A DNA stretch of 63,951 nucleotides, counting the filler, from Kipferlia bialata (taxonomy: Eukaryota), in the NCBI GenBank assembly GCA_003568945.1. It is 7 parts of 6 records of this genome, joined end to end, with 100 filler letters (N's around TTAATTAATTAA, not from the genome) between each part and the next. Parts side by side here need not be neighbours in the genome. Positions count along the whole stretch, not along the records: positions 47,255 to 59,777 come from BDIP01001073.1; 6 more parts are not named here. The stretch is one strand, 5' to 3'. The notes beneath the pieces are model-generated. The model was not told where the DNA came from, did no database searches, and saw nothing but the letters and a program-made list of their open reading frames with translations. Of this stretch, positions 34,492 through 63,951 are shown piece after piece. Made by a program: the position numbers and the translations under genes. Positions within the stretch are counted from its first letter, which is position 1; each line of letters starts with the position of its first letter.

Positions 34492-34703
34492 ACCCCCCCC
34501 CCCACCCCCTCCNNNNNNNNNNNNNNNNNNNNNNNNNNNNNNNNNNNNNNNNNNNNTTAATTAATTAANNNNNNNNNNNNNNNNNNNNNNNNNNNNNNNN
34601 NNNNNNNNNNNNCCCTTCCCTTTTCGGTCTTTCCCCCCCCCCCCCCCCTCTCTCCCCCTCTCTCTCTGTCTTGATGGCCACTCAAGCCTCTAACCCCCTT
34701 CAG

Positions 34704-38605: not shown

Positions 38606-38645
<40 letters not shown>

Positions 38646-40538: not shown

Positions 40539-40569
<31 letters not shown>

Positions 40570-42183
40570 CTATATACTAAGTATCTAATAGCAGTGCATC
40601 ATGTACTATGACAGCCTGGGTGGCATGAGACCCGATGCAGTGTGCAATGTGGCCAGATACATACTGGACGACATACACGACAAGACACCGGAAATAGGTA
40701 AGAACTATATATATATATATATGTGTGTATATGATGATACTATATTCTATGTATATGTGGCCAGATACATACTGGACGACACACACGACAAGACACCAGA
40801 GATAGGTACAGGATTAACATGTATTTCCCATGCTCCCTCTCTCTCTCTCCCCTCACTTCCAGCCCTGTCGGACTGTATATCGGTATATCTCTCTATATAT
40901 GTGTATATATACTATATATATAGTGTATATGATCCCCCTCACCCCCAGGCCTTGACCTGTCAGACTGGGTTGGACTCGGCTACAAGGTGTGGTATTCTGC
41001 TGGACATATATTGTATATAGCTATCCAGATTGGTGGAGATTTATTATTGTTGCTGGTGCAAGGTATGGGAGAGGTGTAAATATATCTATGTGCTCTATAT
41101 GTATCCTAATATATATGTACTCTATATGTATCCTAACACCCCAGGTTGTGCAGCCCCTGCTGGACAAGTGCATTCACTCTAAATATGTATATATGTATAA
41201 TAACTAACGCATACACTGTATAGGTTCTTGTAGTATATATACTAACCCCAGGTTGTGCAGCCCCTGCTGGACATGTATCAGTCTTAATGTCTATGCTGTA
41301 TCTCTCTCTCTCTGCTTAATAAGCACCTATAAGCATTGCTTATGCCAGGTTGTGCAGCCCCTGCTGGACATGTGCCGGGGTCTGCCATACTCACACACCC
41401 TGGACATACCTAAGGTATATATATGACATAGATACTATATACAATATACTATATACTATATATACAAGTACACTATCGCTTTAGGTAGATATATGTATAT
41501 ATAATATATGATGCATATATGTGCCGGGGTCTGCCATACTCACACACGATGGACATACCAAAGGTATATATACATAGGATATATATACTATATATACAAG
41601 TACACTATAGCTTTACGTAGATATATGTAGATATATATATATGATGTATGTATGTGCCGGGGTCTGCCATACTCACACACCTTAGACATACCTAAGGTGA
41701 GTGTATATAGTACAAATACACAATAACTAGGAGTATAGGTGAGAGATGGGGGTTAGAGACAATAGATATCCCAATACTCAGGCCGCCCCCCCTCCCCCCA
41801 AGCCCCAGCCTGTGTACAGGGCACCGGTACCTGCCAGAAGACCAGTGCCCAAGGTATGTGTATGTGTATGTGTATGTATATAAGTACATACCCCAACCTA
41901 TCTCTCTATATTTATATGTATAATACATACATATGTATATGGCACCTGTACCTGCTAGGAGGCCAGTGCCTAGGGTATTTGCCTATCTCTCTCTATCTAA
42001 TAAGACCAGTGCCTAAGGTATGTGTATGTGTATATAAGTACATACCCCAACCTCTTTATATATGTGTTAATAATTAGTATATATATGGCTGCCAGGAGAT
42101 CAGTACCAAGGTACATATGTGTGTGTATCTCTCTCTACCTTTGTCTCTCTCACTATAGGAGGAGTCTGACGATGACTGCATCT

Positions 42184-42238
<55 letters not shown>

Positions 42239-42337
42239 AATCTCTATATCTCACCCCAGGAAGAGTCTGACGACGACTGCATCTCCTTTGACTGCTCCGA
42301 TGAGTATGGGGGGGAGGCAGAGGAGACAGACGACGAG
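34704..42337 (+). CDS. Ulp1/SENP (peptidase C48)-like protein with an AT-hook; many small exons, 5'-incomplete
   Basis: Spliced motifs DWLNDEVVN, CYSSFFYQSL...YAATRRWS, DVLCIPVNWNNTHWTCIVADF (catalytic His; Asp in VADF/YYDS region), CIMYYDSLGG; upstream KKRGRKPGS. The canonical QxNxxDCG motif was not found. Confidence 0.82.
34874..35540 (+). repeat. Array of 7 copies of acceptor plus exon 5' part (GCnnTGTATGAGTCCTCTGTsCAGTCCATGCTGA), period about 95-125 nt
   Basis: Copies at ~34875, 34970, 35064, 35191, 35291, 35393 and the intact exon at 35501, separated by AT-microsatellite spacers. Confidence 0.92.
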
Positions 42338-42564
42338 GTGGGGCAGTTATGTGTGTATCACTATATCTATAGATGTCCCCCCCCCCCCTCTCTCTCACTG
42401 TCCCGCCCCCTCCAACCTGGGCTCTCATGTAGTATATACCAGAATATATATATAATTATATATATACCCCCCCCCCCCCCCCCCCTCCCGTACTTGTTGT
42501 TTCCATATATGGTTCCCTGGCATAGTTTCTCTCTATGTGTCTGTCTCTCTCTCTTACCATCCAG

Positions 42565-43248
42565 ATGGTTCTCTCACTAGGAAAGTTCCCTGAGACCGAG
42601 AGCGTCAACCTCGAGAAGCTAGGTAACTCTCTCTGTCTGTCCTCTCTGTCTCCCTATATTGCCCTCCATATGTACATTATATACTTGGCACATACTGTGT
42701 ACTTCGCCTTGACCTCAATGGCTTGGTACTTTCTCTCTGTTCTATCTCTGTGTCTCTGTGTATATGCGGGTTCATACACTCTTTGTCCTCTGTACTGTAG
42801 TACTCCATTCTCTCCTCTCTCCCCTGTCTGCTTGCCGAAGGTATCTCTTCTGTCACCCATATATATATCTTACCCCAAGGCATGCCCCCCCCCCCTCTCT
42901 CTCCCCATCTCTATCCATCCACGCGTATATGTACTATAACTCATACACCTCCCTTCTGTCTCTCTCTAGACCCTTATTCTCAGGCAGCCGCAGGATGGAC
43001 TCCGCAGACAGGGGTGCCTTCAGAGGCGCCACAGTCGCAAGGTACCATACATGTATGTATGTATTTCTGTACATATTAAGAGGGAAGGGGGAAACAGTGA
43101 CATTATATAAGTGTCACCATTTCATTCATTTCTTTTCTTTTGTATGTGCCCTCAGTCTCTCTTACCCCCCCCCCCCCCCACGGGATGTCACCTTCACCCC
43201 ATTAATAATTTTCCCTCTCTTTCCCCATTTTCTGAGTGAATACATGAT

Positions 43249-43287
<39 letters not shown>

Positions 43288-43921
43288 GCCCCTTATTCCC
43301 AGGGATGCCATGGTCAAGGCACTCAAGGAGAGAGGAGCAGGTATGATATCTGAACATATTTATATGTATATCTATATATATTGTGTATAGGAGAAGGGCG
43401 TTTACGCAGGATATGGATAAGTGTATATGAAGGCAATCAAGGAGCAGGTATGATACATGTATGGATATATATATATATAGTGTAATGATTGCCCAATGAC
43501 GTACCATGTCATATATATATATATATATATATCTACACCCCTAATGTCAGACAAGGCCCTTGTTCACATCGAGCAGTACATCCCCCACCTGCTTGCCATC
43601 CAGGTACCTTATTCTAATGATTGCCACCTTATTCTAATGAGTTCCATATATACATTTGCATACGTATGTGGAATGAGGTACTCATATTATATAGAATGCA
43701 CTAATCCAATAGAACTGGGTGAAGGAGCACCGGTTCAGTGAATGTTCAGTTGCATAATAATATTACTATTTCATAGGTGTATAATTTACACTATTCTAAT
43801 GGGCGCTAGCACTAATCCAATAGAACTGGGTCAAGGAGCACCGCTTCAGTGAGGACAAGGACAAGAGCAGGCAGTACGGCACCATGCCCACATTCAAGTG
43901 GAAGTCATGCCTCAGGTATGG

Positions 43922-43959
<38 letters not shown>

Positions 43960-46292
43960 TGTACTTGTATGTATTCATTTAGACATCTTAAATACTATGT
44001 AGACTATATAACTATAGGCAGGCTAGTGAAAGTCATGTCTCAGGTACAGCTAATCTAATGATACTAATCTAATGAGTGTTGTTGCATATTCTATAGACCC
44101 TATTCTAATGACCTTATTCTAATGACTTCAGGTCCAAGAACAACTGGCACGGTGTGGCCACCCTCGAGTACGAGTACCTCATGGTGGTCTACGCCAAGGT
44201 ACTCCCCCCCCCCTCTCTCTTTACACCGATAGCTCTCTCTCTCCCTCTACACCCTTATATTCAGGCCATGTGTCTCATGGACTCCGCTGCTGACAAGATC
44301 AGGGTCATCGACAACGAGGCCAACGTGGGTATGTAGTAATTTCTCTCTCTCTCTAGAGAACACTATTAATGTAATTTTGTCTCCACCGTTGCTCTCTCTC
44401 TCTCTCTCTCTACACCCCTAATATGTAGGTGAGAACTACACCGTTGCCTCCAAGCAGCTCTGCCAGGCAGCTGGATTGTTCATGAAGGTCAAGGAGCTGT
44501 CCATCGAGCAGGTAATATAGTATATATGTATATGAATGTATATACATATATATATGTATGTATGTTGTATTTACATAAATATACATAATGAATTGTAGAT
44601 ATTATATTTTTATAGTTCTTGGACTGTTCATGAAGGTCAAGGAGCTCTCCATTGAGCAGGTATACACTACATAGTATATAGTATATATGTGAATTATTTA
44701 TATAGAGTTTCATATTGATTTATATGAGACTTGGTATACTGGACTGTTCATGAAGGTCAAGGAGCTCTCCATTGAGCAGGTATGCACTTTAGTATACAAT
44801 GTATATATATATGCTAATTGTATTATATATTCTAATGTCCAGGGTTCCATGGTTGCCGGCCACCCCCTCATCATCATATATATATATATATATATGATGT
44901 GTTGTTCTATATTCTAAAGAGTTCTCTACATACATGCATTTATATGTATACACATATAATTATTATTACTTTTTATTATATACAATTATTATGACTTTAT
45001 TATTATACATACTCCATTTACCCTCCAGGGCTCCATGGTTGCCGGCCACCCCCTCATCATGATACCCGTGGTGGCAGACTTCATGCTCAGGTACTGTATA
45101 TAGAGTATATCCACAACAGCGGTCCCCCCCACAGCCTCCCTCATCCTCACCCACCAGTCTCTCCATTCTCTCTCTCTCTCTCTCTCTCTCTTAGACCCTT
45201 AATGTCCAGCCTCTCCATTGCCTACGCCGAGCTCTGCAGAGTCGAGAACAACATCCGGTATGTGAATATGAGTATCCTGCTTCCCTTCTCTCTCTCCCCC
45301 CCCCCTCTACACCCTTATTCCCAGTGCCCTCCTTGAGATCAACGATGCCCCCAAGTCTCTCTCTCTCTCTCTCTCTCTCTCCTCGTCTACACCCTTATTC
45401 TCAGTGCCCTCCTTGAGATCAACGATGCCCCCAAGTCCCCCAAGATGAACCTCACACTCCCTAGGGTGTGCAAGGACATCCAGGTGTGTATTCACATAAA
45501 TACATACATATGCAAATTGTAAAATACAATTACATATATGTATCTATATATGTATTCTACTTTATATATATGTGTGCATATGGACCCAAGATGAACCTCA
45601 CCCTGCCTAGGTGTGCAAGGACATCCAGTTACTCTCTCTGTCTCTGTCTCTCTCTCTCTATTATTACTATTGATGTGTGTATAGTAGAGTTGAGAGTTAC
45701 TCTAACGACCAGAACAAGCTGCAGCAGGCTGCCTTCAGTGTGCAGGCAGTGGCCGCCCAGGACTGGCAGGTATGAATCTCTCTCTCTCTTACTCTTAGTC
45801 CATCAACCCTGCCATCCGTGACTCCCTCGACTACTTCTCTCTCCCTCTCTCTCTCTCTCTACACCCTTATCTGCAATAACATCAGTCCATCAACCCCGCT
45901 ATCCGTGACTCCCTAGACTACTTCAGCCAGGTGGCAGAGATCATCTCATGCTGCTTCCAGGGCAGGTATGTGCATGCATGAAGTAATTATACTTTGAATT
46001 AGGGTGTAAGCCACATACATACACTTAGTATATGTACTGTATATATATATTTCGTCCTCTCGCTTACCCTCCCAGGCACCACTACTCCCTTATAGTAGTA
46101 TATGTATATGTATATGTAGTATTCTAATGATCAGGCACCACTACTCCCTCAAGGAGACCATGGAGGGTGGAGAGGCACAGTGCGTGGGAAAGGCACTTGC
46201 CTACATGAGGTATGTATTGTATATATATATATATATATACAGAGAGAGAGGCACAGTGCGTGGGAAAGGCACTTGCCTACATGAGGTAGATA

Positions 46293-46330
<38 letters not shown>

Positions 46331-46858
46331 TGCGGAGGCAGGGCACTTGCATACATGAGGCATGTTATTTTCGCCCCTCTCTCCCTCTGTTTCCCTCTTT
46401 CTCTACACCCTATCTCTCTCGCACTACACCCTTAATGTCAGGAGGGCCAAGGAGGTCAGGGATGCCCTCAAGGCACCCAAGGGGACAGACAAGGTATGTA
46501 TATGTATAATTATGTATATGAATGTATATACATACCCAAGGGGACAGACAAGGTATATATATGTGTGTGTATATACATATATTCTCAGTCTGAGAGGCAA
46601 CAAGATCCCAACATTCATTAACGAGAGTATTGTATTCTTTATAGTGTATCTGTTTTATTTTGTGTTAATCTGGCACCTATCTAACCACCTAGATCCTTGC
46701 CAACCGTTACAATGACTTGTGGCCAGTCTATCTCTCTTTCTTTCTATGTGTGTATGCTATTCTCACAATAGATCCTCTACAAGCGCTACAACGACGTGTG
46801 GAGAGGCAACAAGAAGCAGGCGTCTCTGCTTGACGGGGAGCTGGCTGAGTACGTTCTC

Positions 46859-46893
<35 letters not shown>

Positions 46894-46996
46894 CCTCTAC
46901 ACCCTTTTCTCACCCCAGGTACGAGGAGAAGAACGGCAACATCTACCACCACCGTGTCCCATCCACCCAGAACATCACATTCCCCGCTCCATACAG
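42565..46996 (+). CDS. BRO1-domain (BROX-like) ESCRT-associated protein, 3'-incomplete
   Basis: Spliced peptide includes FPETESVNL, IEQYIPHLLAI, PTFKWKSCL, TLEYEYLMVV, ASKQLCQAAGLF, LSIAYAELC, CVGKALAYMR and YEEKNGNIYHHRVP, matching the BRO1 FxW, YE, AAGxF and NxxIYxxxVP signatures. Confidence 0.85.
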
Positions 46997-47115
46997 GTAT
47001 TTATACGACAAGATAGAGACAGTGTATCCTTTATATCAGGTGTACATAAAGCAATACCCCCTATCTGCCTTTAATAACGTGTATTTCCGCTTGCATTTGC
47101 GTTTGCCGCTCCATC

Positions 47116-47154
<39 letters not shown>

Positions 47155-47254
47155 NNNNNNNNNNNNNNNNNNNNNNNNNNNNNNNNNNNNNNNNNNNNTT
47201 AATTAATTAANNNNNNNNNNNNNNNNNNNNNNNNNNNNNNNNNNNNNNNNNNNN

Positions 47255-47303
<49 letters not shown>

Positions 47304-47916
47304 GAAGTATATACTATATAGACACTCGAGTGAGTCACTTCATAAGGCTTATACACTAATATTCAGTAGACACAGGTTGGAACATGCTTGGGAAACACGT
47401 GTGAGACGTGAATGCCAATGGGTAGTATACATATACGTATTTGCGCTAGCGTTACTACATAGTCACCCGTATTACGTCTTCTCGATATCTCCCCCCATCT
47501 CCCCCCAGTGTGTATCTATATAGTGCACATTATCTACCAGTATGAGACACACACGTAGAGCATAGTACCGTACAATGTACGTACAGTGTTCTGTTCACAT
47601 ATTTCTGCTCCTCTTCGGTCATATTGTCCCTCAGAAGGGGAACGAGACCACGCATATCCGGCCAATGGCTGCTACCTCACCACAGTGTAAAGTCCAGCAG
47701 AAGAGGGAACACAATACACACCACTACCCAGGTTGACCGGACCCCTAAGGCAAAAAGACCTGTTTTTGTCATCGAGATTCCATAGGGGTGCAGTCTCGAC
47801 TTGCTTCCAAAGTAAAGAGGTCTCTCTCTCGCATTCGACAGCTACCAGCCCACACATCATTGGAGGAGGTCTCCTATGGACTGTGTTCCAGATAGGAGAG
47901 GCATAATTGAGGGTGA

Positions 47917-47949
<33 letters not shown>

Positions 47950-48512
47950 GGACTGTGTTCCAGAGTCTGGAACACCTCTGGAATCTGGCCTCTCCAGTCT
48001 GGACCAGACAGGAGAGGCCTAATATGGGGTATAGGAAAAGAGGGAGGGAGAGAGAATCTCTAGCCCAGAGGGGTGTCTGTTTGAGTGTGCGTTTCTGAGT
48101 TGATAACATTGTAGGGTTGTATTGTATAGATCTGCTGCGGTTGATGTACTTACATCGATGATTGATATTCATCTTCAAATCTTTGTACGCGTGGGGGCCT
48201 TAGCTTCAACCAATACCAAATGGTTCAACCAATAGGCCGACGACGCCTCGTATCAAACTTGGTCAGTTAGCAGCGCGTCATTGATATACTGATTCCATAC
48301 CCAAAATGAGAGAATCGGATTCTTGCTCTTGTCTCCTTCTGGAAGTGCCGACACACACGTATACACTGTTTACTATACAGTGCCACAGTTTCGTCTCTTG
48401 GTTGCTTCACGCTCTCAAGAGAACAGTTCAGTTGGGGGGGAGTCTACAGCGCTAAGCAGCCATCTACTGGTACTTTTTCGGCTCCCACTTTCTTCTCCAC
48501 ACTTGTGACCGC

Positions 48513-49364
48513 ATGGCCCGTGGATTCAGTCTGTTCAGTGGAAAGAAGGTCCTAGCGCTTGATGTGGAGTGTGTTGCCAATGGAAAGGGGCACAACGACC
48601 GTGTTCCTTGCTGGGTGAGTCCAATTTTGGGACCTAAACTGTAAATATTCTTCTCTGACAACAGGTGGTGATTGTCAACGAGAAGGGCAGGGTACTACTC
48701 GACCTCAAGATCAAGGTTACTGACATGGTGTCGCCGCTCACCAGGTAAGAGTGTCTCTGAGAATTTATGTAAATCAGTCTCATCGTGAGATACGTGGTTC
48801 CAGCATTCACTAACCACTGTATACAAAAGTACTCTTGATGGCCTCAACGAAAGGTTTTCCGGTGTCACCGCTGCTATGCTGCGGAGCGCCCTTCCCCTCG
48901 ACACCGTGATGCGTAGGGTTCACAAGGTCCTCAATAGCCCAGCCATCACTCTTGTCGGCCAGAGCATTGAGAACGACATTGCCTGGCTCGGTCTGGAGAA
49001 GGGAGTGCATTACGGTGACAGCGAGGACATCGCCGAGCATTTCCGTACCTACAACGAGAAGTACAAGGACTACAACTACTTTTCCCTCGTACAGACGGCC
49101 TATGGGCTCCTCGGGACCTCCATCCAGTCCACTGCCCACTCTCCCATCGAAGACGCCAAGACAGCCATGCGGCTGTATGTGGAGTGGATCAAGACAGGAC
49201 GGGATGCTGAGGGAGGGGCCCGGTTGACCCGAATGCGCTACAAGAGGCAGTTCCCCCAGGAGACGATGCCCACGGATATCCACTGTGACGGGGTGTGCGG
49301 TGCCAAGTACCAGCAGGCCAGGTGCATATGTGGCCAGCCTTGTGTGGAGAGGAAGAGAGAGTAG
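48513..49364 (+). CDS. Rex4/ISG20-like DEDDh 3'-5' exonuclease with a Cys-rich C-terminus; 3 exons
   Basis: Exo I VLALDVECV, then LTRFSGVT, Exo II LVGQSIEND, Exo III HSPIEDAKTAMRLY. Introns at ~48615-48665 and ~48746-48852. Confidence 0.88.
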
Positions 49365-49704
49365 AGGGAGAGAGAGAGGGAGAGGAGCCCATCCACCCCT
49401 GTGCGCTCGACCCACTACCCCCGGGAGAGGGACTACCGTGATGAAGAGGAAGACTACGTGGTCAGCCAGCCCGAGGGGAGTGTCGCTGCGGACTGGTACT
49501 GAAAATAGTATAGTTGACGTATATGTACTGGGTCCAGCTCTCGGGGACTTTGGCACCTAGCTGTAAATAGAGTATACAGCCTGGAACTACTGTTGGCGAC
49601 TGTATTATCCGACTGTTAGTCATAACTTAGGACGAAAGTTAAGGAAATCTGATCTGTTCTATTACATAAGGAAAAATAGTACAAAGAGTGCCTTGATATA
49701 CACC

Positions 49705-50080
49705 TTACATGGAGACTGATGTGCTCTCTCTCTCCATCTCCCTAGAGACAATCTCCAGGAAGGCATCTTCGAGTCTAGGCACCCTCACAGTCCAGATAAC
49801 CCCCTTTGGAAGTGTAGACACATACGTGTACAGTGCCACAGGGTCATGTCCGTGGGAGAACGCAACCTCCACACTATACAGACCGTCACTCTGAGGTGAT
49901 ACTCTAACACTGTCCACTGCTACCCCTAGCTGTCTGATGTCTCTCTCTGTCTGGTAACCATCGGATACACCCTCTAGTACTAGTATAGTGGGTGTACTGC
50001 ACTGTTGGCGAAGGCCCCCAGGGGACCCGACTGTGACAACGGTGCCACGTACCTGACAGTTAGTTACATCGATGAATAGA

Positions 50081-50118
<38 letters not shown>

Positions 50119-53100
50119 TGTGACGACAGTGCCACGTACCTGATGTAAGTATATGAATGAACATAGCAATACAGTATGTATATGTCGAGTGAGAGATGGG
50201 GAGATAGACTCTATCTCAGATAGAGAGAACTTGAGCAAGTGGAAAGTATGAAGAGCACGGATATATACGCACCATAATAGCTGCGCTCTGGGCTAATGTC
50301 TCTGCCTCCCCCATGTCATGGGTGTTGAGCAGTAAGAATGTACAGTATGTACACAAATATTACGCACTACCTATATTACATATATATATACAGACTCACC
50401 ATGATTGCTGCTGAGTGTGCGACTGTCTCTGCCTCCCCCATGTCATGGGTGTTGAATATATCTATAGTGTACTATATAGTAATATACATAGTACATAGTA
50501 TACTAATGTATATTATATACACATACCATTATTGCAGCAGAATGGGCCAGTGTCTCTGCCTCCCCCATATCGTGTGTGTTGAGCAGCAGGGTGCTGTCTG
50601 TGTTGAGTATAGCACTCCACACCGATCTCTTGGTCAAAGGGTCAAGACCGGTGGTGGGTTCGTCTGTCAGAAGGACACCATGGGTACTAGTACCTGGTAT
50701 TGAAATATACCTATTAATGACATCACATATACATTAACATATATACATACAATGTAAGGAGAGGAGGACACCATGGGAACTGGTGCCTGGTATTAATATA
50801 TATATGTAAGTATACATAGAGCTACTTGAATAATGGATGATATCCCATGAGTAGGACACCATGGGAACTGGTGCCTGGTATTAATACATGTATATCATTA
50901 TATATAGAGATACTTGTATAGTGGGCTCGTCAGTCAGAAGGACACCATGGGTACTGGTACCTGGTATGAGTATATATATATGAGAATGTGTCAGAGCTAC
51001 TTGGATGATGGATGGTGGGCTCATCAGTGAGTAGTACCCCGTTGCGACTGGTACCTAATGGGTTAGTATCAGTAGCAAAGATAATGAGTACGAGGATCAT
51101 TACATGAACCAAGTTCACTGTATAAAAATGTATGGTAGTTATACCTAGAATAGCCATGCAGAGAGACAGCCTCCGCCTCATCCCACCGGAGAGCTCCCCA
51201 GACCGCTTGTATCTGTGTGTAGTGAGCATGGTTAAGGAGAGCAGACCCTCAACAACCTCTGTTAATGTCACACCAGGGCTAGTCTGCAGACCCCTGATCC
51301 TAGCTATCGTGTAGAGATGCTGCTCTACAGTGAGGAAGGGCCAGACACAGTCATGTTGGGGCATGATGCTGATGTGTTGCCATGCATCCCTTGGGTGCTG
51401 GGTGAGGTCTGTGCCGGTGCTGAGGAGGGCAGTGCCAGCAAGGGCAGACAGGTGGCCTATAAGTAAGTATACTTAGTATAAACATGTAACTATACTAGTA
51501 TACTTAATAGTTCGTTTAGTATAGTATAGTATACGTGCTGAGGAGGGCAGCGCCAGCATGGGCAGAGAGGTGGCCTGGGTGTTAGTGTATTGTAATTACT
51601 ACCAGAGTAGCTCAGTATAGTGTAGTGTTGTGAATACAATAGTGCTGTACTATAACAGCCCAATACGTGGGTGCCTGCATGGGCAGAGAGGTGCCCTATA
51701 AGCGAGATATGATACAGGGTGTAGGTGCCCTGGGATTTGGTATCACAATAGAAACTAGAGGAGATGCACAAATATCAAAGAGTGAGAACAAGAACGAGAC
51801 CATGTAAAACCGAGACAGAAAGAGACTGACTGTCTCTGACATCTTACCTGTAACGACGTTGGCCAGGGTAGTCTTGCCTGGAGTTAGTGAGCTCAGACGA
51901 GTGTCACACATGAGATAGATAGATGGAGTCAGCATGCGCACAGAGAGTGTCATTATCATTAACAAATAATGCAACGAACATATTGGATATATAGTCCTCA
52001 AGCCGCTATCGGTTACGAAAGAGAGAGGGAGAGAAGATGCCATACCTGAACCAGAAGCCCCAAGGAGAGCCACCGTCTCCTTATCTCTGACACCAAGGTT
52101 GACTCCATTAAGGGCCCTGGTGCCCTTGGGGTATTGGTACTCTATACCCTTTACATCAAGAGCCAGACGCTCCTCATGACAACAAGGCTCTAGAACCTCC
52201 CCTTGTTGCATCTCTCTCTCTCTCCCCTTGGTGACCTTAACTCTAGGAAGCAGATAGAACGACAACCCAAGACAGACGGCAGAGGCGAAGAGAGACACTA
52301 GGTTCATGCTTAGGGTGTCGGAGAGCATCTTAGTGGCATCAGTGGTAGTAAAGGCCAGTCTCATATCAATAATGAAGGCGAGTATGGGTGCAACGCCCAG
52401 GGGTGGGATGGCCTCAATGTAGAACCCGATAGAAAAGAATATAAGTGTAAAGACGCTGGTGGCGATAGACGCCGCCTTCACACTGTCTGCAACGGTGCCA
52501 ACGAGGAAACTGAAGGAGACGACAGCAGCAACACCGACACCAAACGTGACTGCAAACATCGTGAGTGAGTCGGAGCCGTGCTCAAAGCCTGGTAGCCCCA
52601 GCGTGTATCCTGCGGCTATTGCAACCACAGCAGCCACTAGTGCGACACATACCCACCATAGTAGGGACACCACGTGAGAGAGTGTCCGCCCCACCCCGTG
52701 GTAGGATAGGAGTGGGGCCTGCTCTGCGGCGGATATGATGTGGATAGCTGGGAAGGGCACTAGCAGAAGCAGGGCCAGGGGCACAATGAAGACTGTCACT
52801 ACCTTCATTAGGCTGTAACTGCCTGTCTCAAGGGTTGGGTCGAGCATGTAAGGGTAGGACGACACTGACACGGAGAGAGAGAAGTCCATCCCGGTGCCTG
52901 GGTACTTGGTATTAACCAAGGAGCGCAGCCAGGCTTCATCAAGTCTTGCAACTAAGTCACTCGCTATACCTGATAGCGTTGGTCTAGGTGACGATGGTAG
53001 TCTGAGCAACACCTCACTGTCCTTCCCATCCTCTACCACCATTCCGGTTGGTATACGAACACGGCTGCTAAAAGAAGGAGGGTTGGTGGTACGACCCGTC

Positions 53101-56100
53101 TTTGTGTTGAAAGAGGTGATACCAGCAGTGTTCTGCATATGTACAGTGTGGTGCCTTGTGTTGTAGTTGGTATCTGACAGGAACCATGGAAGGTATGAGT
53201 GCAGAGTATAGCTCAGGGCTGGGCGAGTCTCACTCACCGTGTAGCCAAAGAAGTCTACAACTCCTATGGGTCCCATATCGGCGAGGAACACTGCGCTTCC
53301 AGACCCGGCGTTCTCTGCTGAATACTGGAGTCCTGAGTCGTATATGTTCTGGTAGACGCTGTTCTCATGGAACTCAGAGAGGTACTCTTCCATGTCACAC
53401 TCAATCAGAGGCGTCCTAAGGGCGGTGTGGATATACTCCGTGTCTGCCGTGGTGTCACAGGAGTCTCTCTGCCACTCAACAGAGTCTCTCTTGCAGGTAT
53501 CCTCACATGCACTGATGTCAAAGCCGGAAGAGGCTGTAGTATCATGGTACTCATGATAGGGCTCCCAATACGTAGAGCACTCCTCTACACACACAAAGAC
53601 GTACTCATCGCATGTCGAGTCTGTGGTGGTAGTGTAGAGGGGTCTCATGTAGGGTAGGACTCCAGGCACCACATCGCCATGTGGGTCAGGGTATACACCG
53701 GAGTCTATCCCCGCATAGAATGCACCGAGGTGGGCTGACAGCCAGGTAGGGTCCACCTCCATACTCTCAACCTCTGTACCCTCCCCCACCTGCCCATTGG
53801 CTAGGAGGCTATCAAGGTCAGGGTGATTGGCGCTGTTCTTGACCTGAAGCGTAGCAGGACCAGCATTAGTGTACCCAAACATCCCACTCAACGTCCCTCC
53901 TGATGGATAGGTCTTGACTGCTGGTGACTGCACGTCTAATCCCTCGTACGCAGCCTCTGCCAGACACACCCCATCTGCATACCCGTCTAGACCCTCTGCC
54001 CAGCACAACTCAGGCCTGTCAGATCTACAGGCTGTCATCATGTCCTCTGTTGTGTAGGGAGGGGATGGGTAGAGCATAGCACAGCATATCTCACAGGCCG
54101 CACTAGCCGCTTCCCATGTCTCATCATACGCAGTCTGGAGGGTGTTCTGGAACGAAGGCTCCAGAGTGCCTACTAAGAGACTCGCTGCCAGCACTACAAT
54201 CCCAGACATCACCGCAAACATCACTACAGTGAGGGTAATGCCAACTGCTACCCTTGCAGGTTCGGGCACTGTTACACCGCTAGCCACGAGGACACTTGTG
54301 GCCTTGAGTTGTATGAGAGTCCAGAACTTCTGACGCAGAGAGGGGTGCTGGTCTGTCTCCATGACTGTATCCACTGGCACTGATGGGCCTACACTCTCAC
54401 TAGCCTTGGTCAATGGGGTCAATCCCACTTGTTGAGGCCCAGTAGATGCAGAAGGGACAGAAGAGAGCTCCTCCTGCACACCACCTACCACACTCAGGAA
54501 GTACTCAGTGAAAGAGGGTCTGTCTAGGACAAAGTCTGTGACAGAGTCATGTGTCGACAAGTACTGCGCCAGGGCAGGCATGAACCCCTGGCTCTCTATA
54601 CCTCCCACTCCTGCGCCTCCCTTGGTAAAGGAGAACCGGACTGTATTAGGCGATGACAGGTGTAGCTGGCACTCCACCCCGTACTGTCTGGCCAGTAGAC
54701 CCAGTTCTGACTCCAGTAGTGGACGTGGGTCACTAACACCACCGGTACTCTCACACCAGAGAGTGGCGGTGATGCCAGCTAGAGAGTGCCGCAACTCTAG
54801 AGGGGTGCCCTCTGCCAGAACCCTACCCTTCTCCACCACGGCTACAGTGTCAGCCAGTTTCTCAACCAGTGTCATGTCGTGACTAGTGACTAACACACAG
54901 CTCTCAGGGCAGCGCAGGGAGGCAATGTACCTCCAGATTAGTAAACATATTATAGACAGAAATTACGTTATAGGTATTAAACATTATAGATATATTTGTT
55001 TAATATATATGTACCTCCAGATGACCCGCTTGGTGACTGGGTCCAGCCCTGTGGTGGGCTCATCAAGGACAACAAGGGGTGGCCTGACGGGTTAAACATA
55101 TTCTAATAGATGAACATGAATACGAGAGAGTGTCAGTATGTAGTATATACCCATTGGCATTGAATGATACCTGCCAGCTGTAGCCATCAAGAGAGAGAGC
55201 CGGCGTATCATGCCACCGGATAGTTGGGAGGCCTTCTTGTTGGAGGCATCTGCTAGGTCCACCGCAGTGAGGAGCCGATCGATCTCGGCCTCAGTGGCAG
55301 CCCGTCTCTCCTTGCGAGATAGACTATCTCCCTTGCCCCTGAAGGCTCTGATGGCTAGGGCAACGCGTAGGTTCTGACGGCAGGTCAGATCGAGCCACAC
55401 GTTTGTAGAGTGTTGAGGGCAGAGACCGACGCGTTTCTTCAGGAACCGTACGGAGTACGGTGAACGGAGATCGTACCCAGCGACCTGTACCTGGGTGTCA
55501 CCAGTGGTGCTAGGGTCTGGAGCGACTTCTCCCGATATCACAGAAGAGAGGGTACTCTTTCCAGCCCCATTAGAACCAACCAGGAATGTGACAGTGTCTG
55601 GCTGGACGGTTATGTCGACCCCCCTCAACGCTCTGACCTCCTTCTGAGAGGCCCCTCGGCTGGTCTTGTATGTGACAGCTAGGGACTTGATATCTACAGG
55701 GGGTCCAGCCTGACTAGACCTTGCCAACCAGAACTGGGGTGTGAAGAGAAACATGAGCGGCAGCCCCCGGTATCCATCACCCTTACGCACATGTGCAATG
55801 TACACACCAATAGCACCCAACACAAGATACTGCCATAGAGCAGCAACAAGTAGGGTACCCACTGACGCCACAGAATAGAGACAGGTCTCCTCTCCAGAGA
55901 CCTGGTAAGAGCAGTGCTTGGATGTGTAACGCGCAGCATCCCAGAAATCACTCAGGGAGAGGGTGGTGGAGCAGTTTAGGACGTCCTCCACGCATGCTCT
56001 GGTTAGTATGGAGTACAGAGACTCTAGGAGACTGCAAGTCATGTACACGGGTGATGTAAACTCCATGACAGCCCTCACGACAGGTGGGGAGATGGTTGGG

Positions 56101-58340
56101 TCGAAGATCGAGTTGTCGAAGATGATGTAATACACGAGAACGAGGCCGAAAGAGCCAAACGTGAGGCCAAAGGCTACTGCAAAGGACGTCTGGGGGTTGT
56201 TGAACAAAGCAACAACCACAAGACTGAATCCCACACAGAAGAGGGACGGGAAGAGGAATACTAGGTACTGGGCCCAAAAGGTGGCTGCAACGGAATCAAA
56301 GGGGGATATACCGACAAGGTGAGCAGCGAGTACATCTAGAAGTGCAGTGACGGCCCCAAAGACTGTGAGGATGCCAAACCAGTTCAGCCAGTACTGAACC
56401 TCAGTCACTCCTGGGGTGAGTTGTGCATGTATATATCCACAATAAGAGATATCCATAGCTACAATATTTACAACACTCTCAATACCCTTACCTAGCCGTC
56501 TGATAGCTGGAAGGTTGGCATGCTTATCCTCGGCCAGAAACATGACATACCACAGGCTCTGGCAACGTGAGAAGAAGCAGAGACAATGGAAAGAATGCCT
56601 CATTCGTTGTTTATACGAGGCTAGTAGGCTATGTCAGACTACATTTGTATGAATACAAATTGAAATTGCAAATGATATACGTATATATGTATATACCGGT
56701 GCCACCATAGAAATGACTATCGTGATCTAAATAGAGGACATAGTATCTGGCATACGAGTGGTTAATGGGAATGCATAAGTGTATACGAATATTTATACGT
56801 AGGTTCATGTTAGTACACACATATATACCTGTGCCACCATGGCTATGACTATCGTGATCATGATAGAGGACACTATGCCATTGGCACCGCCAGAGGGGTT
56901 GGGCAGGGCTGCGACCTAAGTGTCAGCACAGTATTTGGAATATATACCATGTATATGTGTATGTATCTGTGAAAACTACAATAGAATATGGGTTCGGCAG
57001 GGCTGCTACCTAAATGTCAGTGCCATACTACTATAGTATGATACTGATATAGTATGATACTATATCTTCATTAAGCAATACATCTGTATAATACATTATG
57101 AATACAATGAACACAATGGTATAAGGGTTGGGTCCTAGTATTCATTACAAAAGTACATACACTACAATATAGCGTAACAGTGCTGTTAGCGATATACAGT
57201 AGATGTCTCCACTGTCCCTAGAAGGCCTATCTTAACGTACCTCTACGTTGAGGTCGACAGGGGTACCGGTGATGAGAGAAGCTAGCTGGGTATGAGAGAC
57301 GGAGAGGGGGGGAGAGAGAGGCATAGAGACAGAGGCAGAGATACTACTAAGGAGAGACACATATACCTGTCCGTCTATCAATGCCTGTAGCTGCAGGGCC
57401 ACCCCAGAGAACTCATCGGGCTTCCCCACTTCCTGAGAATGAAACAGGGACATGGAGAGTATATACATGTGAGTACATATGGGGAGAAGGTATTAATACA
57501 TTATTCTGCCAGAGTGTCAGTGTATCCAGACAATGTACACATATACATATATGTATATATTCAAGAGTACCTGTGCCAGGGGGTCTGTCCCTATTGGGTC
57601 ATCGGTGTACATGATGTCTAGCATGGTCCTGTTCAGCTGGGTATGAGTATATTGTAGGACGAGACAGAGATCTACAATGAATAACAAATATGAAACAAAT
57701 CTGAATAGGCTTATGACATAGGCAATGTGCTTGTCATCATGTACATGTATGTGGTATGATGGTGCCATGGGGACACTGGTATCTATGAAATCTAAAAGGA
57801 ACTCATATACATAAATATATACCAATATGAATGAATATATATATATATATCAGTCCATGTATACCTGTATGTGGTAGGATGGTGCCATTGGGACAGCGGC
57901 ATCTATATGTACTATACTACACGGTGTATACATATATATATATATCTATATCATACACCTGCATGTGGTATGAGGCTATTCATATATTTACATATTCATT
58001 AACATATATACTTCCGTATATACCTGGATATGATAGGATGGTGTCATTGGGACAGCCTCATCGAAGCCGTCAAAGACAACACTGAGGGCACTGATAGGAG
58101 ATAGAGAGAGAGAGAGAAGCAATACTGAGGGCACTGATATCAGAGAGAGAGACAGACAGAGAGAGAGAACACAACAGTGAGGAGCAGTGATATCAGGTAT
58201 AGAAAGAGACGATATACAATGTGGCAATGTATATATCTGATACACTACCTTGGTATGAATGGCGACTCCTCCAGCCACACTACATAGAATACCAATACTA
58301 TAGTGACGTTTACACATTAGTACTCTATACTAAGATATAT

Positions 58341-58376
<36 letters not shown>

Positions 58377-59433
58377 CGGTATGAATGGCGCCTCCTCCAG
58401 TGCCAGCTGCTCTGTGGTGACTCCGTATCTCGCTAGGTTGGTGGGAGTAGGGTCTAAGTCCCCACTCTACATGTGAGATGCCCCAAACAATTGACCTCAA
58501 GGAACGGATCGATGGATATGTCGGGAATACACATATATACCTTGAATAGCCCCAGTGTCAAAGAGAAAGATAGTGGGTAGTTGATATATGTATATACACT
58601 ATCTATACACATATCCACCTTGAATAGTCCAAGTGCCACGTGGGTATCCAGCTCAGCCACCGTGGTATACCTGGGAGGGTGAGTGGAGATACAAGAGATA
58701 GTACGTAAATATATATATATATATATGTGTGTGTGTGTATATATACATACACCGAATAACTGGGAGGGTGAGAGGAGATATATACTATATAAGTTAGTAC
58801 GAATACAAAGAGAGACAGCTCACTTTACATCAGTGTCACTTACCCTCTAACTGTCTCACTGCCCCACCCCAGGCCCTCTCTTATACCCTCCATGACTGCA
58901 CTTGTACCAGCGTTGATGGGGGCATACATCATCCACTATATATATATATATATACATATTAGAAGTAAGTTGTCACATACCCTCTAAGTGCCTCAGCTTC
59001 CCATCCTAATCCTTCTCGTATACCCTCCACCACTGCACTTGTACCAGTGTTGATGGGTGCGTACATCATACTGACACACCCATGGTCAGGGTCAGTATCG
59101 GCATCGACCTAACGAGTTAGTGCAACACGACTAACACTAATCATACACACACACAGACACAATACATACCTTGCATGTACGAATCTACATGGGGTTGTAT
59201 GTACACCATACTATATATATATGAGTATACCTTGCACATGCCAAGTGTATCCATTCCTGTGGGCGTGTATGTAGTGACCATGAACAGGGGAATGTATGCA
59301 TTATATATGCCATACACCATGTATATATGTAGTCAATGGGTGTATACCTTACATATTCCCATGGTGTCCATGGTTATTGGGCTGTATGTGGTGACCATGA
59401 ACAGGGGGAGGTACAGGAACACAGTCGAAGTGA
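49705..59433 (-). CDS. Full-size ABCA-subfamily transporter (two TMD/ECD-NBD halves), 5'-incomplete
   Basis: NBD1: GSNGAGKST, VGLCPQH, LSGGMIRRLS, VVLDEPTTGLDP. NBD2: GASGSG|KTT (split by an intron), MPQHD, LSGGMRRRLS, TDEPTTGLD. Regulatory motifs PSFTEYFL and PRLEDAFL; stop at 49705. Confidence 0.93.
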
Positions 59434-59877
59434 CTGATGTCAGAGAGAGAGAGAGAGAGAGATAGAGTGGGAGGAAGGTACAGGAACACTGTCGAAGTAA
59501 CTGGGGTCAGCGGGAGAGAGTCGCACACATATGGGGAAAGTAGTAGAGAGAGGAATGTATAGGAACACAGTGGCAGTGACTGGGGTCACAGAAAGAGACA
59601 CACACACACATATTGGGAGAGGAAGAGAGAGAGGAATGTATAGGAACACACTGGCAGTGATTGGAGTCAGAGCCTGAGAGAGAGGATTAGGGGGAGAGAA
59701 GGAAGGTTGCAGACGCAGGGGAGGGAGAGTGTGTATGTGGGGGGGGGGGGGGGGGGGGGGGGGGAGGGGAGGAAAAANNNNNNNNNNNNNNNNNNNNNNN
59801 NNNNNNNNNNNNNNNNNNNNNTTAATTAATTAANNNNNNNNNNNNNNNNNNNNNNNNNNNNNNNNNNNNNNNNNNNN

Positions 59878-59932
<55 letters not shown>

Positions 59933-59939
59933 TACATAG

Positions 59940-60961
59940 GGAACTTTGACCATCCATATTGAACAGGTCATCCCTATGAGTAAAATGTATACATATACCG
60001 GCATGCAGAAAGGAATGGTAACTAAGAACACACAATGAACAGGTCCCAACGGAAAAGAGATATTCAGAGTCACTAGGAGTAATGAAACAGGGCAGATACT
60101 AATATAGGCATAGAGAGGAAGGGGGGGGGGGATAATGGATAAGATGGGGGACACTTAGAAGGGGAGGGGGGGTGTGCACACGTACTTGTTGCTGAATCTG
60201 ATGATGTTGTCGGATGCATACATAAACAGGCATATAGACAATGAACATTCAGTGAGCAGGCCCCAATGGATAAGAGGTATTCAGAGTGACACGTACTTGT
60301 TGCTGAATCTGATGATGTTGTCGGGTGCGTTGGGGTTGTTGGCTGTGAGCATACGGGTCACCTCCTCATCAAGCTCCTTCTCAGACAGGGGGACCTAGAC
60401 ATGAGGCAGAGAGGGAAGAAAGAGCACGTAAAAAGCACCTGGTGCAAATATATTATACTGAGATGTATTCATCGCTAAGTCAGTGCCCAACGTATCAGAC
60501 AGAGGATACTCCAGGCACAATAGACTATGAGACTATTGGTATACTCGCCAGTACTAAGTCTAGTTCTCTGCCCATAACAATCCATAGACTAGTAAACCAA
60601 AACCACCCCCACCATCCATTACCACCCCCATACACACCCTCCTCTGGTATAGACACCCTATCCATGCCTAGACACTACCTGGTTCTTGGGGATGATCACA
60701 TTGGCCTGGGTGGTCTCAGGGGTGTCCTTGTCGGCTCTGCGGCGTGCAGGCCGCCTAGCAGCCTTGCCCTGAGGTTTCTTCTCCTATTGTGAGCATAATA
60801 GAGTGCACAACCACGCCAAAACAGCAGGAACAACGAAAGCGTGTCACAGTTCACCCATTCTTAGGCACTCACTGTGCTCAAATCCCCCCCTAGAACCATA
60901 AAATACACTAAGCATGTGAAAGAGTTACCGATTCCAGCTATACCTGGGGAACTGGAGCCAT
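59940..60961 (-). CDS. DNAI1: Outer-arm dynein intermediate chain 1 (IC78/DNAI1), 5' part only
   Basis: IIPKNQ|VPLSEKELDEEVTRMLTANNPNAPDNIIRFSNK matches the recalled DNAI1 N-terminal motif (ELxEExTRxLTANNPxAPxNIxR). The first exon (MAPVPQ, ATG 60961) is tentative. Confidence 0.85.
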
Positions 60962-61099
60962 GATCGACCACTGGCTTGCTGAAGAACTCAAACTTCAGCC
61001 TTCTAAGGAATCAAAAAGACTAAAGGGTGTAGACGCAGTTTCTTGACAAAAGGGTGCAGAGTACTGGTAAAGGCCGACTGTCAGCTTCACGAACTCAAG
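60962..61099. promoter_or_regulatory. Putative compact bidirectional promoter between DNAI1 and Atg18
   Basis: Only about 140 nt separate the two inferred divergent ATGs. Confidence 0.5.
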
Positions 61100-63838
61100 A
61101 TGCAGATTGAGAAGAACGAGAAGGGAGGAGGTGAGACAGTTAGTTAATATGTATATTGCCAGATTTGAGGTAGTTGTAGAAGGCAGAGAAGGGAGGTTCT
61201 TAAACAGAACGAGTGTAATGTTGTTTTGTCGTCTCTAGAGCTCAATGTACTGTATTTGGGTTATATTGCTGGTATTATGGGTGAGCAGGGCCATTTTTTA
61301 CACTTACTTGTCGTGTTAGGCGGTGTAAGTAGTGTTTCAGTTCATATATGAGATGACACTGATTTGGTTGATACTGGTACAATACTTGTTCAGACAGACT
61401 GGGACTAGGTCAGAGATCTTCCATTCGATTGTCTGTTGTCTTACTCGTAAGTTTTGTCTGCTCTTGTGTCTTCTAATGCAATGTATACGTACATATATCA
61501 CCCCACTTGTCTCTCTCTCCCTCACCTGTCAGACCTCCTCTTCTGTGGGTTCAACCAGGACAATGGGTGCATTGCAGTCGGAACCAAGGTGTGTGGTCAT
61601 ATAGCACATGGTACCATGACTTCCTTCTCCGGTTGTGTTGAGAGGGAGAGTCGGGCAAGTGTCAATATGCTATATATCACCTGTCATCTACTCGCACCCG
61701 GGTCTCCCATGACAAATATTAATATACCATCTCATATGTATACTGACACCCAGGTTGGGTTCCGCATCTTCAACGCCGACCCCTTTGTGCGTATGTTCAG
61801 CAGAGACATTGCAGGACACAAGGGTATGTACATTTGATATGTCACACGCTTATCTATAGGTGTCTCATGGTTAAAGAGTACTTATCCTCAGTCGACATCC
61901 GCTCCAGACAAGGCTCTGGAATTAATATATATCCTATTTTCATTCATCTTAGCTCTATTCAGTACTTATCCTCAGGCGGTATCCGTTCCGTTGAGATGCT
62001 GTTCCGCACCTCCATCCTGGCCCTGGTCGGGTCATCTGTCTCACCCCCATACTCCCCACACAAGGTATTATATGATTGTATGGATATCTCTCATGTAGAA
62101 GGGTACTATCTGTGTCACCCCCATACTCCCCACACAAGGTATGTAATGGGTAGGGGCATACTCTATGTATATCCCTCTCTTCATATACATATATATATAT
62201 TTCTGTTTACTAATACTGACCCCAGGTTGTCATCTGGGATGACCACAACAGGCGCATCCTGGGAGAGATCAACTTCAGGTATGGAGTCCCATATGTGTGT
62301 ATTTCAGGGACATATATATATGTATGAGTAGTGCTAGTGTGTGTTTTCATATTATGGTGTTACTATAGATGGTTTTTCCTTCTGCTGCCCCTCACCCCCA
62401 GGTCCATGGTCCGTGCTGTCAAGCTGAGAAAGGACAGGTATGTGGATGAAAGAGACACATAGCATATTTATTGCTACTCGTAGATAGATATATGTATATA
62501 TACAGTCTCTCACCCCAGGATCGTGGTTGCTCTCAAGCAGAGGGTGTACGTGTACTCCCTGGCAGACTTCTCCTTGATCGACCAGGTTTATATACATATA
62601 TATATATTGACAATAGTACATATACACACATATATATATATATATATTAATAGTACTGGTATTAGTGCATAAGTGTACTCCCTGGCAGACTTCTCCCTCA
62701 TTGACCAGGTATAGATGCAAATATAGATGCATATATATATGTATATATATACATACTAGAAGTATATGACTTTGTGTATATGTGTACCCCCTGGCAGACT
62801 TCTCCCTCCTTGACCAGGTATATATATCCATATTATTGAATTCTTATATACTAATACTGGAGGATACGTGTGTGGTATATTTAGGGTTGTTAATGTGTTT
62901 ATAGAATACTCCTAGGTATAGCACTCACCCCCCAGATTGAGACCCTTGACAATGAGCTGGGTCTCCTTGCCCTGTGTCCATCCACATCCACGGCATCGGT
63001 CATGGCATGCCCAGGTATATTATATATATATGTATTGTATGTATATATATATATACATATGGGTGTATATACATGTGTGTATATATACATACCTATCCAC
63101 ATCCACGGCATCGGTCATGGCATGTCCAGGTGTATGGTATATACTATATACTATATGTATTATATATATACTAAATGGTACTCCCTCTATATATATATAG
63201 GATGTGCCCATTCACATCCACTGCATCGGTCATGGCATGCCCAGGTGTATATACGTTATAGAGGCATCTATATATTTATAGTTTATACTCTCATTCTCTG
63301 TCCCCCCTCACCATCAGGCATCAAGGCTGGTCAGCTCCGTATCCAGACCATATATATTTATATATGAGTATATATAGATCTATCCCTCACCCCTAGGCAT
63401 CAAGGCCGGCCAGCTCCGTATCCAGACATCCTCCTCCACCCCTCTCTTCATAGAGTGCCACCAGACTGCACTCCAGGTATATAGATATGTATATATACAT
63501 ATATGTATATGTACTCTATACTCCCCTTCTTTTGCACCCTATCTTCATAGAGTGCCACCAGACTGCACTCCAGGTATTTTCACTCTGAGTTGAATACCAT
63601 TATCATTGAGGAATACATGTGTTCATATTTGTGTATCCATATTTGTGGTAACCCTCACCTCCAGTCCATCTCCGTCACTCTGGATGGATCCATGGTGGCC
63701 ACAGCAAGTGTCAAGGGTATGTGTATGTGTATAGTATTCTCATTGTCTGTGTCTCATATACTTGTATATATATATATATATATATAAGTATATGTGGATA
63801 TATGGATGGATCCATGGTGGCCACAGCCAGTGTCAAGG
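61100..63838 (+). CDS. ATG18: PROPPIN (Atg18/WIPI3-4/Hsv2-like) WD40 protein, 3'-incomplete
   Basis: MQIEKNEKGG|DLLFCGFNQDNGCIAVGT, GFRIFNADPF, VEMLFRTSILALVG, KVVIWDD, VRAVKLRKDRIVV, IETLDNELGL, IECHQTAL, DGSMVATASVKG. The F/LRRG motif lies beyond the window. Confidence 0.9.
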
Positions 63839-63951
63839 GTAGGTGAAGGATATGTGCTTGTATATACAAGTATGTACTCTTCTAATGGAACCCTCTGTGG
63901 GGTCTCTCTCTCCCCCCCCCCCCCCCCCCCCTCCCCCCCCCCCCCCCTCCC

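What the first reader, a model, noticed from the sequence alone, without database searches (positions are those of the whole stretch)
59231..59665. An alternative exon version appears split around the current exon
The intact exon (59433-59348) reads TSTVFLYLPLFMVTTYSPITMDTMGICK. Two upstream echoes read TA(T/S)VFLYIPL and the downstream echo reads IPLFMVTTYTPTGMDTLGMCK. Both sides share Ile (ATT) where the intact exon has Leu (CTC), and they overlap at IPL. Together they rebuild a complete alternative exon into which the present copy seems inserted. This is a direct clue to mechanism: a break within the exon repaired by inserting a homologous exon with its flanking intron.
Basis: partly seen in the sequence, partly recalled or inferred. 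Interest (0 to 1): 0.8.

Follow-up and report, generated by a model that had tools for sequence, protein, structure and literature searches.

The report
Introns stuffed with displaced exon halves
In this free-living protist about half of the intron DNA examined is tandem half-copies of the neighbouring exons whose differences from the working exon are mostly silent, so they are likely halves of formerly working alleles pushed aside by imprecise recombination, which would make one genome an archive of its population's diversity.

Summary
The exon belongs to an ABCA transporter named as Kipferlia bialata, and it is one case of a window-wide pattern: 62 of 104 curated exons carry 133 half-exon copies, about 52% of intron DNA. 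This resembles 'exon stuttering' of chicken dot chromosomes; this scan also noted it in sea urchin genes, where the silent bias sat at the neutral level. Here it does not: echo and exon differ 4.5 times more at 4-fold than 0-fold sites (95% 3.4-6.1; dead copies give at most about 2), echoes differ from each other the same way, and their intron flanks are nearly unrelated. So echoes were protein-coding while they diverged, likely as other alleles. The single-insertion model fails as a rule: 41 of 62 exons are one-sided, 5' and 3' breakpoints are uncoupled after scaling to exon length, and only this exon of 5 informative ones shares a variant across the overlap. Best reading: one-sided, imprecise recombination between diverged alleles, independently at each exon end.

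The parts
59630..59660 (-). outermost 5' echo (Ile type, TASVFLYIPL); acceptor decayed to AA
   Evidence: the automatic alignment ran on into low-complexity DNA to exon position 49; the clean match ends near 31
59549..59579 (-). middle 5' echo (Ile type, TATVFLYIPL), own AG and branch-point-like CTGAC
   Evidence: 81% identical, 4 silent and 2 replacement differences
   Evidence: 92% identical, 2 silent, 0 replacement differences in aligned codons
59348..59433 (-). intact 86-nt exon of the ABCA transporter gene
   Evidence: AG/GT and frame; its 3' part MDTMGICK begins protein P0001
59231..59296 (-). 3' echo (Ile type) followed by GT
   Evidence: 74% identical, 6 silent and 6 replaced codons of 22, no gap or stop
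59289..59297 (-).
58981..59108 (-). next ABCA exon
   Evidence: matches P0001 letter for letter
58844..58932 (-). 89-nt 3' echo of that exon (longest in the window), with no 5' partner
   Evidence: 81% identical
49705..59433 (-). ABCA transporter gene, 5' end cut off at the gap above 59777; 20 echoes
14830..63850 (.). window-wide set of 133 echoes on 62 exons of 7 curated genes on both strands

Best explanation
The echoes are dead half-exons, each with one splice site, and they are likely pieces of formerly working alleles displaced by imprecise recombination between diverged homologues, independently at the two ends of an exon. Shown: echoes differ from the live exon and from each other mainly at silent sites; their intron flanks are almost unrelated to the exon's flank; they carry stops, frameshifts and decayed splice sites at about the level of recent neutral decay; inner echoes are closer to the exon than outer ones; the two sides are uncoupled. 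Inferred: introns are too diverged between alleles to pair, so a broken end invades the homologue inside the short exon, copies about 100 nt through one splice site into the donor's intron, and is rejoined to the other end at a microhomology (often a CT tract). The copied half becomes the working one and the old half is left beside it as an echo. Later misaligned exchanges between exon and echo add units next to the exon and reuse the junction. Copies holding both splice sites would be spliced in and are inferred to be purged, so only half-exons survive. At the finding's exon, Ile was probably the resident state when the two outer 5' echoes and the 3' echo were laid down; the Leu version came later and left the nearest echo.
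For: dN/dS echo versus exon 0.195 (bootstrap over 62 exons 0.14-0.26; shifted frames 1.3 and 2.3), mismatch by codon position 8.4/4.9/19.9%. K4/K0 4.5 (3.4-6.1), above 2 in all 2000 bootstraps and in each base class. Simulated dead copies passed through the same detection filter give 1.6-2.0, observed 3.9; echo versus echo 2.8 where dead copies give 1; single-echo sides 4.6; without ABCA 3.7. Changes private to one echo have dN/dS about 0.4, changes private to the exon 0.16. Splice dinucleotide kept in 60 of 71 and 54 of 61, as K0 = 0.067 predicts, while only 4 of 132 flanks are at least 12/14 identical to the exon's flank; neighbouring spacers 57-63% alike against 50-52% by chance. Stop or frameshift in 14 of 133. 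Inner closer than outer in 20 arrays, farther in 6, tied in 7. Unit period median 107 nt; 27 of 71 5' junctions fall on a dinucleotide tract against 13.5% background. Context from print: metamonads lack canonical NHEJ and fornicates lost Rad51A and keep two Dmc1 copies (PMC8516963, passages); Dmc1 stabilises mismatched joints (PMC6719624, abstract).
Against: No donor allele was seen: X1 shows no other letters over 12.5 kb at 90% likeness and no second copy of the ABCA piece was found among proteins of 224-716 aa, so diverged alleles are inferred. The implied silent distance between alleles (about 0.19-0.26) is very high. 3' junctions are not enriched for dinucleotide tracts (4 of 62). Echo counts on the two sides correlate weakly (rho 0.22, p 0.04), and unscaled breakpoints look closer than chance (p 0.006-0.02) until exon length is allowed for. 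One genome cannot separate a conversion patch from an unequal crossover, nor from duplication followed by allele exchange. Frames outside ABCA rest on my own gene models.
Confidence: 0.52

Rival explanations
1. Ordinary local tandem duplication makes an identical echo; afterwards recombination in a very diverse population swaps the live exon and its flank for another allele, so echo and exon differ by allelic distance. Same archive of alleles, different order of events.
For: Gives the same K4/K0 excess; a few echoes are identical to the exon and a few spacers are clearly related (up to 0.88).
Against: Needs exchange within about 100 nt of nearly every echo; identical echoes mostly have unlike flanks (1 of 17 near-identical echoes has a near-identical flank).
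Confidence: 0.17
2. The echoes are old in-place duplicates held protein-compatible by selection, because recombination occasionally collapses the array and recruits an echo's splice site and half exon into the gene.
For: Explains conserved coding part and splice signals beside saturated spacers without very diverse alleles; 0-fold divergence is lowest in the 10 nt next to the splice site (0.035 against 0.055-0.078).
Against: Stops are not depleted (4 of 131 single-base replacements against 3.9% expected); 8 of 11 gaps shift the frame; the low first bin may be an alignment-end effect; collapse through 20-50 nt of 10-25% diverged DNA should be rare (inference).
Confidence: 0.13
3. One reading: one break inside the exon is repaired by inserting a whole homologous exon with both flanks, leaving 5' and 3' halves of the old exon around it, with a short overlap like a target-site duplication.
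For: At this exon the 9-mer ATACATTCC and Ile are shared on both sides, which two successive one-sided events from a single Leu donor could not give. 9-10 of 21 two-sided exons meet within -5 to +12 nt.
Against: 41 of 62 exons one-sided; no excess of two-sided exons; breakpoints uncoupled after scaling; 1 of 5 informative overlaps shares a letter; divergence of the two sides only weakly related (rho 0.33, p 0.14). Long exons carry short echoes at one end only. About 0.3 for this exon alone.
Confidence: 0.09
4. Plain exon stuttering: copies die at birth and the silent bias comes only from selection on the live exon (the reading reached for sea urchin genes in earlier scan notes).
For: Geometry matches exon stuttering; copies do decay.
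Against: Caps K4/K0 near 2; observed 3.9-4.5, and echo-echo 2.8. Silent share 59% for nearest echoes against a floor of 41% (p 6e-10).
Confidence: 0.05
5. Echo halves are used in mRNA by alternative splicing, or the echoes are an assembly artefact.
For: Most echoes keep their splice dinucleotide.
Against: Only 6 of 133 could be joined in register at an AG|GT, none at this exon; the one spliced contig of X2 uses the intact exon 56915-56829 and skips both its echoes, and P0001 uses intact exons; contigs built from reads hold the echoes.
Confidence: 0.04

Closest known systems
Exon stuttering on avian dot chromosomes (Hron et al., bioRxiv 10.1101/2025.09.16.676548; abstract and passages read; supplements not seen)
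   Same: Direct, imperfect partial copies of the adjacent exon in the neighbouring intron, anchored at the exon border, exon part median 36 bp (here 35 nt); one to several copies; simple-repeat-rich introns; mis-aimed strand invasion is among the authors' guesses.
   Different: There 3.4% of dot-chromosome introns, GC-rich, reported only in birds and gerbils; here 59 of 91 gap-free introns, AT-rich introns (38% GC), a metamonad protist. Spacers here are nearly unrelated between units. The word 'synonymous' does not occur in that text; the coding-constraint signature is the new part.
Human F7 intron 7 37-bp VNTR spanning the exon 7 donor (PMC1557585, abstract read)
   Same: Tandem copies of an exon end with silent pseudo-donors downstream of the real one; the most upstream donor is chosen.
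   Different: One locus, near-identical repeats, donor side only; no allelic divergence signal described in the abstract.
Internal gene duplication and intron gain by tandem duplication (Rogers model; Gao and Lynch 2009 as cited in PMC4974935, passages read)
   Same: Short intragenic tandem duplications touching splice sites.
   Different: Those create or multiply introns; here no intron is created, existing introns grow by about 97 nt per event.
One-sided invasion / SDSA finished by microhomology joining; MMBIR (PMC4888836, passages on SDSA and MMBIR read; one-sided invasion seen only as a cited title, the rest recalled)
   Same: One end copies a homologous template, the join is non-homologous and leaves a short duplication.
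   Different: Known from experimental breaks and disease rearrangements, not as a routine source of half the intron DNA of a genome.

Membership tests
Exon stuttering (Hron et al.) | Partial direct copies of the adjacent exon in the neighbouring intron | tested here: met
   133 copies on 62 of 104 exons
Exon stuttering (Hron et al.) | Copied stretch starts at the exon border (over 90% within 1 base there) | tested here: met
   106 of 133 within 1 base, 128 within 4; partly by my filter, which dropped 4 unanchored hits of 140
Exon stuttering (Hron et al.) | Repetitive introns made of imperfect tandem units | tested here: met
   units of median 107 nt, 1-6 per side, 52% of intron DNA; spacers far less alike than the exon parts
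Exon stuttering (Hron et al.) | Large intron length variation between individuals | not testable with these tools
   only one sample holds this DNA
Exon stuttering (Hron et al.) | Associated (not defining) GC-rich setting | tested here: not met
   introns 38% GC, exons 56%
Neutral dead tandem copies | 4-fold/0-fold divergence from the exon at most about 2; echo versus echo about 1 | tested here: not met
   3.9-4.5 and 2.8
   holds at this exon only
Mutually exclusive alternative exons | Each copy has both an acceptor and a donor and keeps the frame | tested here: not met
   echoes carry one splice site; 6 of 133 joinable in register
Interallelic one-sided recombination | Donor alleles exist at matching distance and new echoes differ from their exon at birth | not testable with these tools
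   no second isolate or haplotype found

The most novel reading that the evidence does not exclude
Recombination in this Dmc1-only, NHEJ-less protist routinely swaps exon halves between alleles about 20-25% apart at silent sites and leaves the displaced half in the intron. Half of its intron DNA is then a time-ordered archive of former alleles, and a single apparently homozygous genome proves cryptic sex (or exchange between homologues) and extreme diversity in a lineage where neither has been measured.
Probability: 0.5. Interest if true: 0.88.

Novelty: new variant of a known kind. Interest (0 to 1): 0.72.

Why it matters
If echoes are displaced alleles, allelic diversity, recombination and the order of past exchanges can be read from one genome, in a free-living relative of Giardia where sex is an open question (recalled). 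It offers a measurable mechanism for intron growth, shows exon stuttering outside vertebrates at far higher incidence than in chicken, and gives a simple statistic (4-fold/0-fold ratio above 2) that separates captured alleles from dead copies in any stuttering genome. It also bears on splicing: the cell must pick the farthest donor and farthest acceptor among up to six decoys. Practically, echoes will mislead gene predictors and read mapping in this genome.

Tried and rejected
No whole genome was held, so the 'genome-wide' test is window-wide: 7 genes in 6 of the 7 pieces that spacer gaps separate. The genes below 14.8 kb were not curated, and one exon of the 34.7-43.1 kb gene was left out. 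No RNA holder was listed; run X2 is only guessed to be RNA and covers ABCA thinly; its contig over 59346-59528 includes intron and says nothing on splicing here. A second laying of reads on other genes gave no data, so use of intact exons outside ABCA is unverified by RNA. A metagenome scan for relatives gave one 30% ABC protein, not used. The paralogue P0002 lacks the N-terminal region, so Ile/Leu could not be polarised. A first null with unscaled echo lengths suggested shared breakpoints; it vanished once echo length was scaled to exon length or drawn from one-sided exons. An apparent excess of AG before 3' echoes was not significant against a fair background (24 of 62, p 0.12). Of 140 hits 7 were dropped (unanchored, frame unknown or adjacent). 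Literature searches found no description of this in Kipferlia and none of a silent-site excess in such copies; in the K. bialata genome paper (PMC5874029, passages) 'duplicat' and 'alternative splicing' occur 0 times in the main text; its supplements were not read. The scan's notes held nothing for this genome or sequence.

Full report
Observation. The window is an intron-rich eukaryote; no whole genome was held. The exon at 59433-59348 (minus strand) is the first preserved exon of an ABCA transporter gene (ABC_tran and ABC-2 hits). Protein P0001, named by NCBI as ABCA of Kipferlia bialata, is 100% identical to the long exon, and it runs through the intact small exons letter for letter, starting at MDTMGICK inside this exon. 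Contigs of DNA run X1 (possibly the source) cover the echoes without other letters, and a contig of run X2 splices four ABCA exons at GT-AG, using the intact exon 56915-56829 and skipping its two echoes.

It is a window-wide pattern. A self-comparison gave 135 repeat pairs, nearly all about 100 nt apart. I modelled genes, kept 104 exons of 7 genes (one exon left out; genes below 14.8 kb not curated) and aligned each to its flanking introns with a threshold from 1560 unrelated pairs: 140 hits, 133 kept, on 62 exons. 71 lie upstream and copy the acceptor plus the exon's 5' part; 62 lie downstream and copy the 3' part plus the donor. Median exon part 35 nt, 1-6 per side, unit period median 107 nt. 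59 of 91 gap-free introns hold echoes, each adds about 97 nt, and the units make up 52% of 23.8 kb of intron.

The echoes were coding while they diverged. If a copy dies at birth, silent sites change in both lineages and replacement sites in one, so the 4-fold/0-fold ratio cannot much exceed 2; simulations through my detection filter gave 1.6-2.0. Observed: dN/dS 0.195 (0.14-0.26), with 1.3 and 2.3 in shifted frames; K4 0.30 and K0 0.067, ratio 4.5 (3.4-6.1), above 2 in all 2000 bootstraps; 3.7 without ABCA; 4.6 for the 50 single-echo sides and 2.8 between neighbouring echoes, where dead copies give 1. Replacements are more conservative than random (BLOSUM 0.10 against -0.58). Yet the echoes are now decaying: stops are not depleted (4 of 131 single-base replacements, 3.9% expected), 14 of 133 carry a stop or frameshift, and the splice dinucleotide survives in 114 of 132, as about 7% decay per site predicts. 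The intron flank beside each echo looks like a working splice flank (branch-point-like motif in 53 of 71) but is not the exon's flank: mean identity 0.51 and 0.43 against 0.34 and 0.37 by chance, 4 of 132 near-identical, no relation to coding identity. The simplest source of a working, silently diverged half exon with a different working flank is another allele. Solving for the two components gives 0.02-0.055 changes per site since death and 0.19-0.26 silent distance at capture (depends on an assumed dN/dS of 0.05-0.16).

One inserted whole exon predicts paired echoes, common breakpoints and shared variants. 39 exons have a 5' echo, 44 a 3' echo, 21 both; 41 are one-sided and a sensitive anchored search finds a weak partner for 8 of them. 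Among 86 internal exons both sides occur on 19 against 17.2 expected within length classes (p 0.25), though counts correlate weakly (rho 0.22, p 0.04). Against unscaled lengths the halves seem to meet (9-10 of 21 within -5 to +12 nt, p about 0.02), but both kinds scale with exon length and stop near the middle whether or not a partner exists (0.41 and 0.52 in one-sided exons, 0.39-0.43 and 0.50 in two-sided); scaled permutations give p 0.2-0.9. Five exons have an overlap with a differing letter; only this one shares it across sides. So the meeting is an effect of geometry, and the finding's exon is the most favourable case. But Ile as the resident state at three earlier events, with Leu arriving later and shedding the nearest echo, fits equally, and the downstream echo sides with the exon at the Pro third base.

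Mechanism. Inner echoes are closer to the exon than outer ones (20 against 6, 7 ties, p 0.002), so units are added next to the exon. Echoes in one array often end at the same base (for example five at position 40 of exon 26620-26555), which points to growth by misaligned exchange between exon and an existing echo. 5' junctions favour dinucleotide tracts, mostly CT (27 of 71 against 13.5%), 3' junctions do not (4 of 62). At least 13-20 nt of exon always stays uncopied, as a need for pairing, or selection against two-splice-site copies, would give. I infer one-sided invasion of a diverged homologue within the exon, about 100 nt of copying through one splice site, and a microhomology join. Print context fits but proves nothing here: metamonads lack canonical NHEJ, and fornicates lost Rad51A and keep two Dmc1 (PMC8516963, passages); Dmc1 stabilises mismatched joints (PMC6719624, abstract). 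Against: no donor is visible in this sample, and duplication followed by allele exchange, or selection on recruitable back-up copies, cannot be excluded from one genome. Alternative splicing is unlikely: 6 of 133 echoes could be joined in register at AG|GT, none here.

Comparison. The geometry is exon stuttering as described for chicken dot chromosomes (bioRxiv 10.1101/2025.09.16.676548; abstract and passages): border-anchored copies, median 36 bp, 3.4% of dot introns, seen only in birds and gerbils; 'synonymous' does not occur in its text. Two earlier notes of this scan describe the same geometry in sea urchin genes, one with 43 of 107 silent differences, which matches the neutral floor I computed (38-41%); I did not check those loci. 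Here the silent share is 57-59%. Searches found no report for Kipferlia or of this signature; subscription journals and supplements were not covered.

Verdict. Observation confirmed; interpretation partly supported. A new variant of exon stuttering, very dense, whose copies carry the mark of former coding alleles. Interest 0.72; the boldest reading (a one-genome archive of alleles that shows cryptic recombination and extreme diversity) has probability about 0.5 and would merit 0.88.

Noticed in passing
window 26620-26555 (-): The only complete copy of this exon (VCISLDASGSMND..., a vWA-like motif by recall) is preceded by TG, not AG, while all five upstream echoes keep AG. Assembly error, unusual acceptor, or a gene now relying on an echo's acceptor.
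   Followed up: partly
window 40291-40697 (+): Three 5' echoes and the exon encode the same Ser by AGT, AGC, TCC and AGC: a two-step silent switch that dead DNA is unlikely to make.
   Followed up: partly
window 49705-59433 (-): ABCA echoes are more diverged at 4-fold sites (0.37) than those of other genes (0.11-0.28 in the five other genes with more than one echo), as old balanced alleles or a paralogous donor would give.
   Followed up: no
window 59433-59373 (-): Public protein P0001 starts at the internal Met of this exon (MDTMGICK); the frame and an acceptor continue upstream, so the annotated protein is probably truncated by the contig end above 59777.
   Followed up: partly
window 12547, 25191, 30361, 34513, 47155, 59778: Six identical 100-base spacers (N44, a 12-mer with stops in all frames, N44) join separate contigs; neighbours across them need not be adjacent. 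The dynein-intermediate-chain-like exons at 60783-60297 (name recalled) are not part of the ABCA gene.
   Followed up: yes
window 59177-59168 (-): A 10-nt match to the exon end plus GT may be a second, eroded 3' echo; below the detection threshold.
   Followed up: no
window 766-927 and 3539-3744 (+): The Vps8/Vps41-like gene (RING hit), in a more GC-rich piece, shows only a few echoes in the self-comparison; it was not curated.
   Followed up: no
window 14.9-20.7k (+), 34.7-43.1k (+), 43.3-47.0k (+), 61.5-63.8k (+), 8.3-12.2k (-): By recalled motifs, not by a call: molybdenum cofactor sulfurase-like, Ulp1 SUMO protease-like, Bro1/ALIX-like, Atg18/WIPI-like and eIF4G-like genes.
   Followed up: no
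all curated exons: Echoes stop short of the far end of the exon: at least 13-20 nt of exon is always left uncopied, and 5' echoes cover about 41%, 3' echoes about 52% of the exon whether or not the other side has one.
   Followed up: partly
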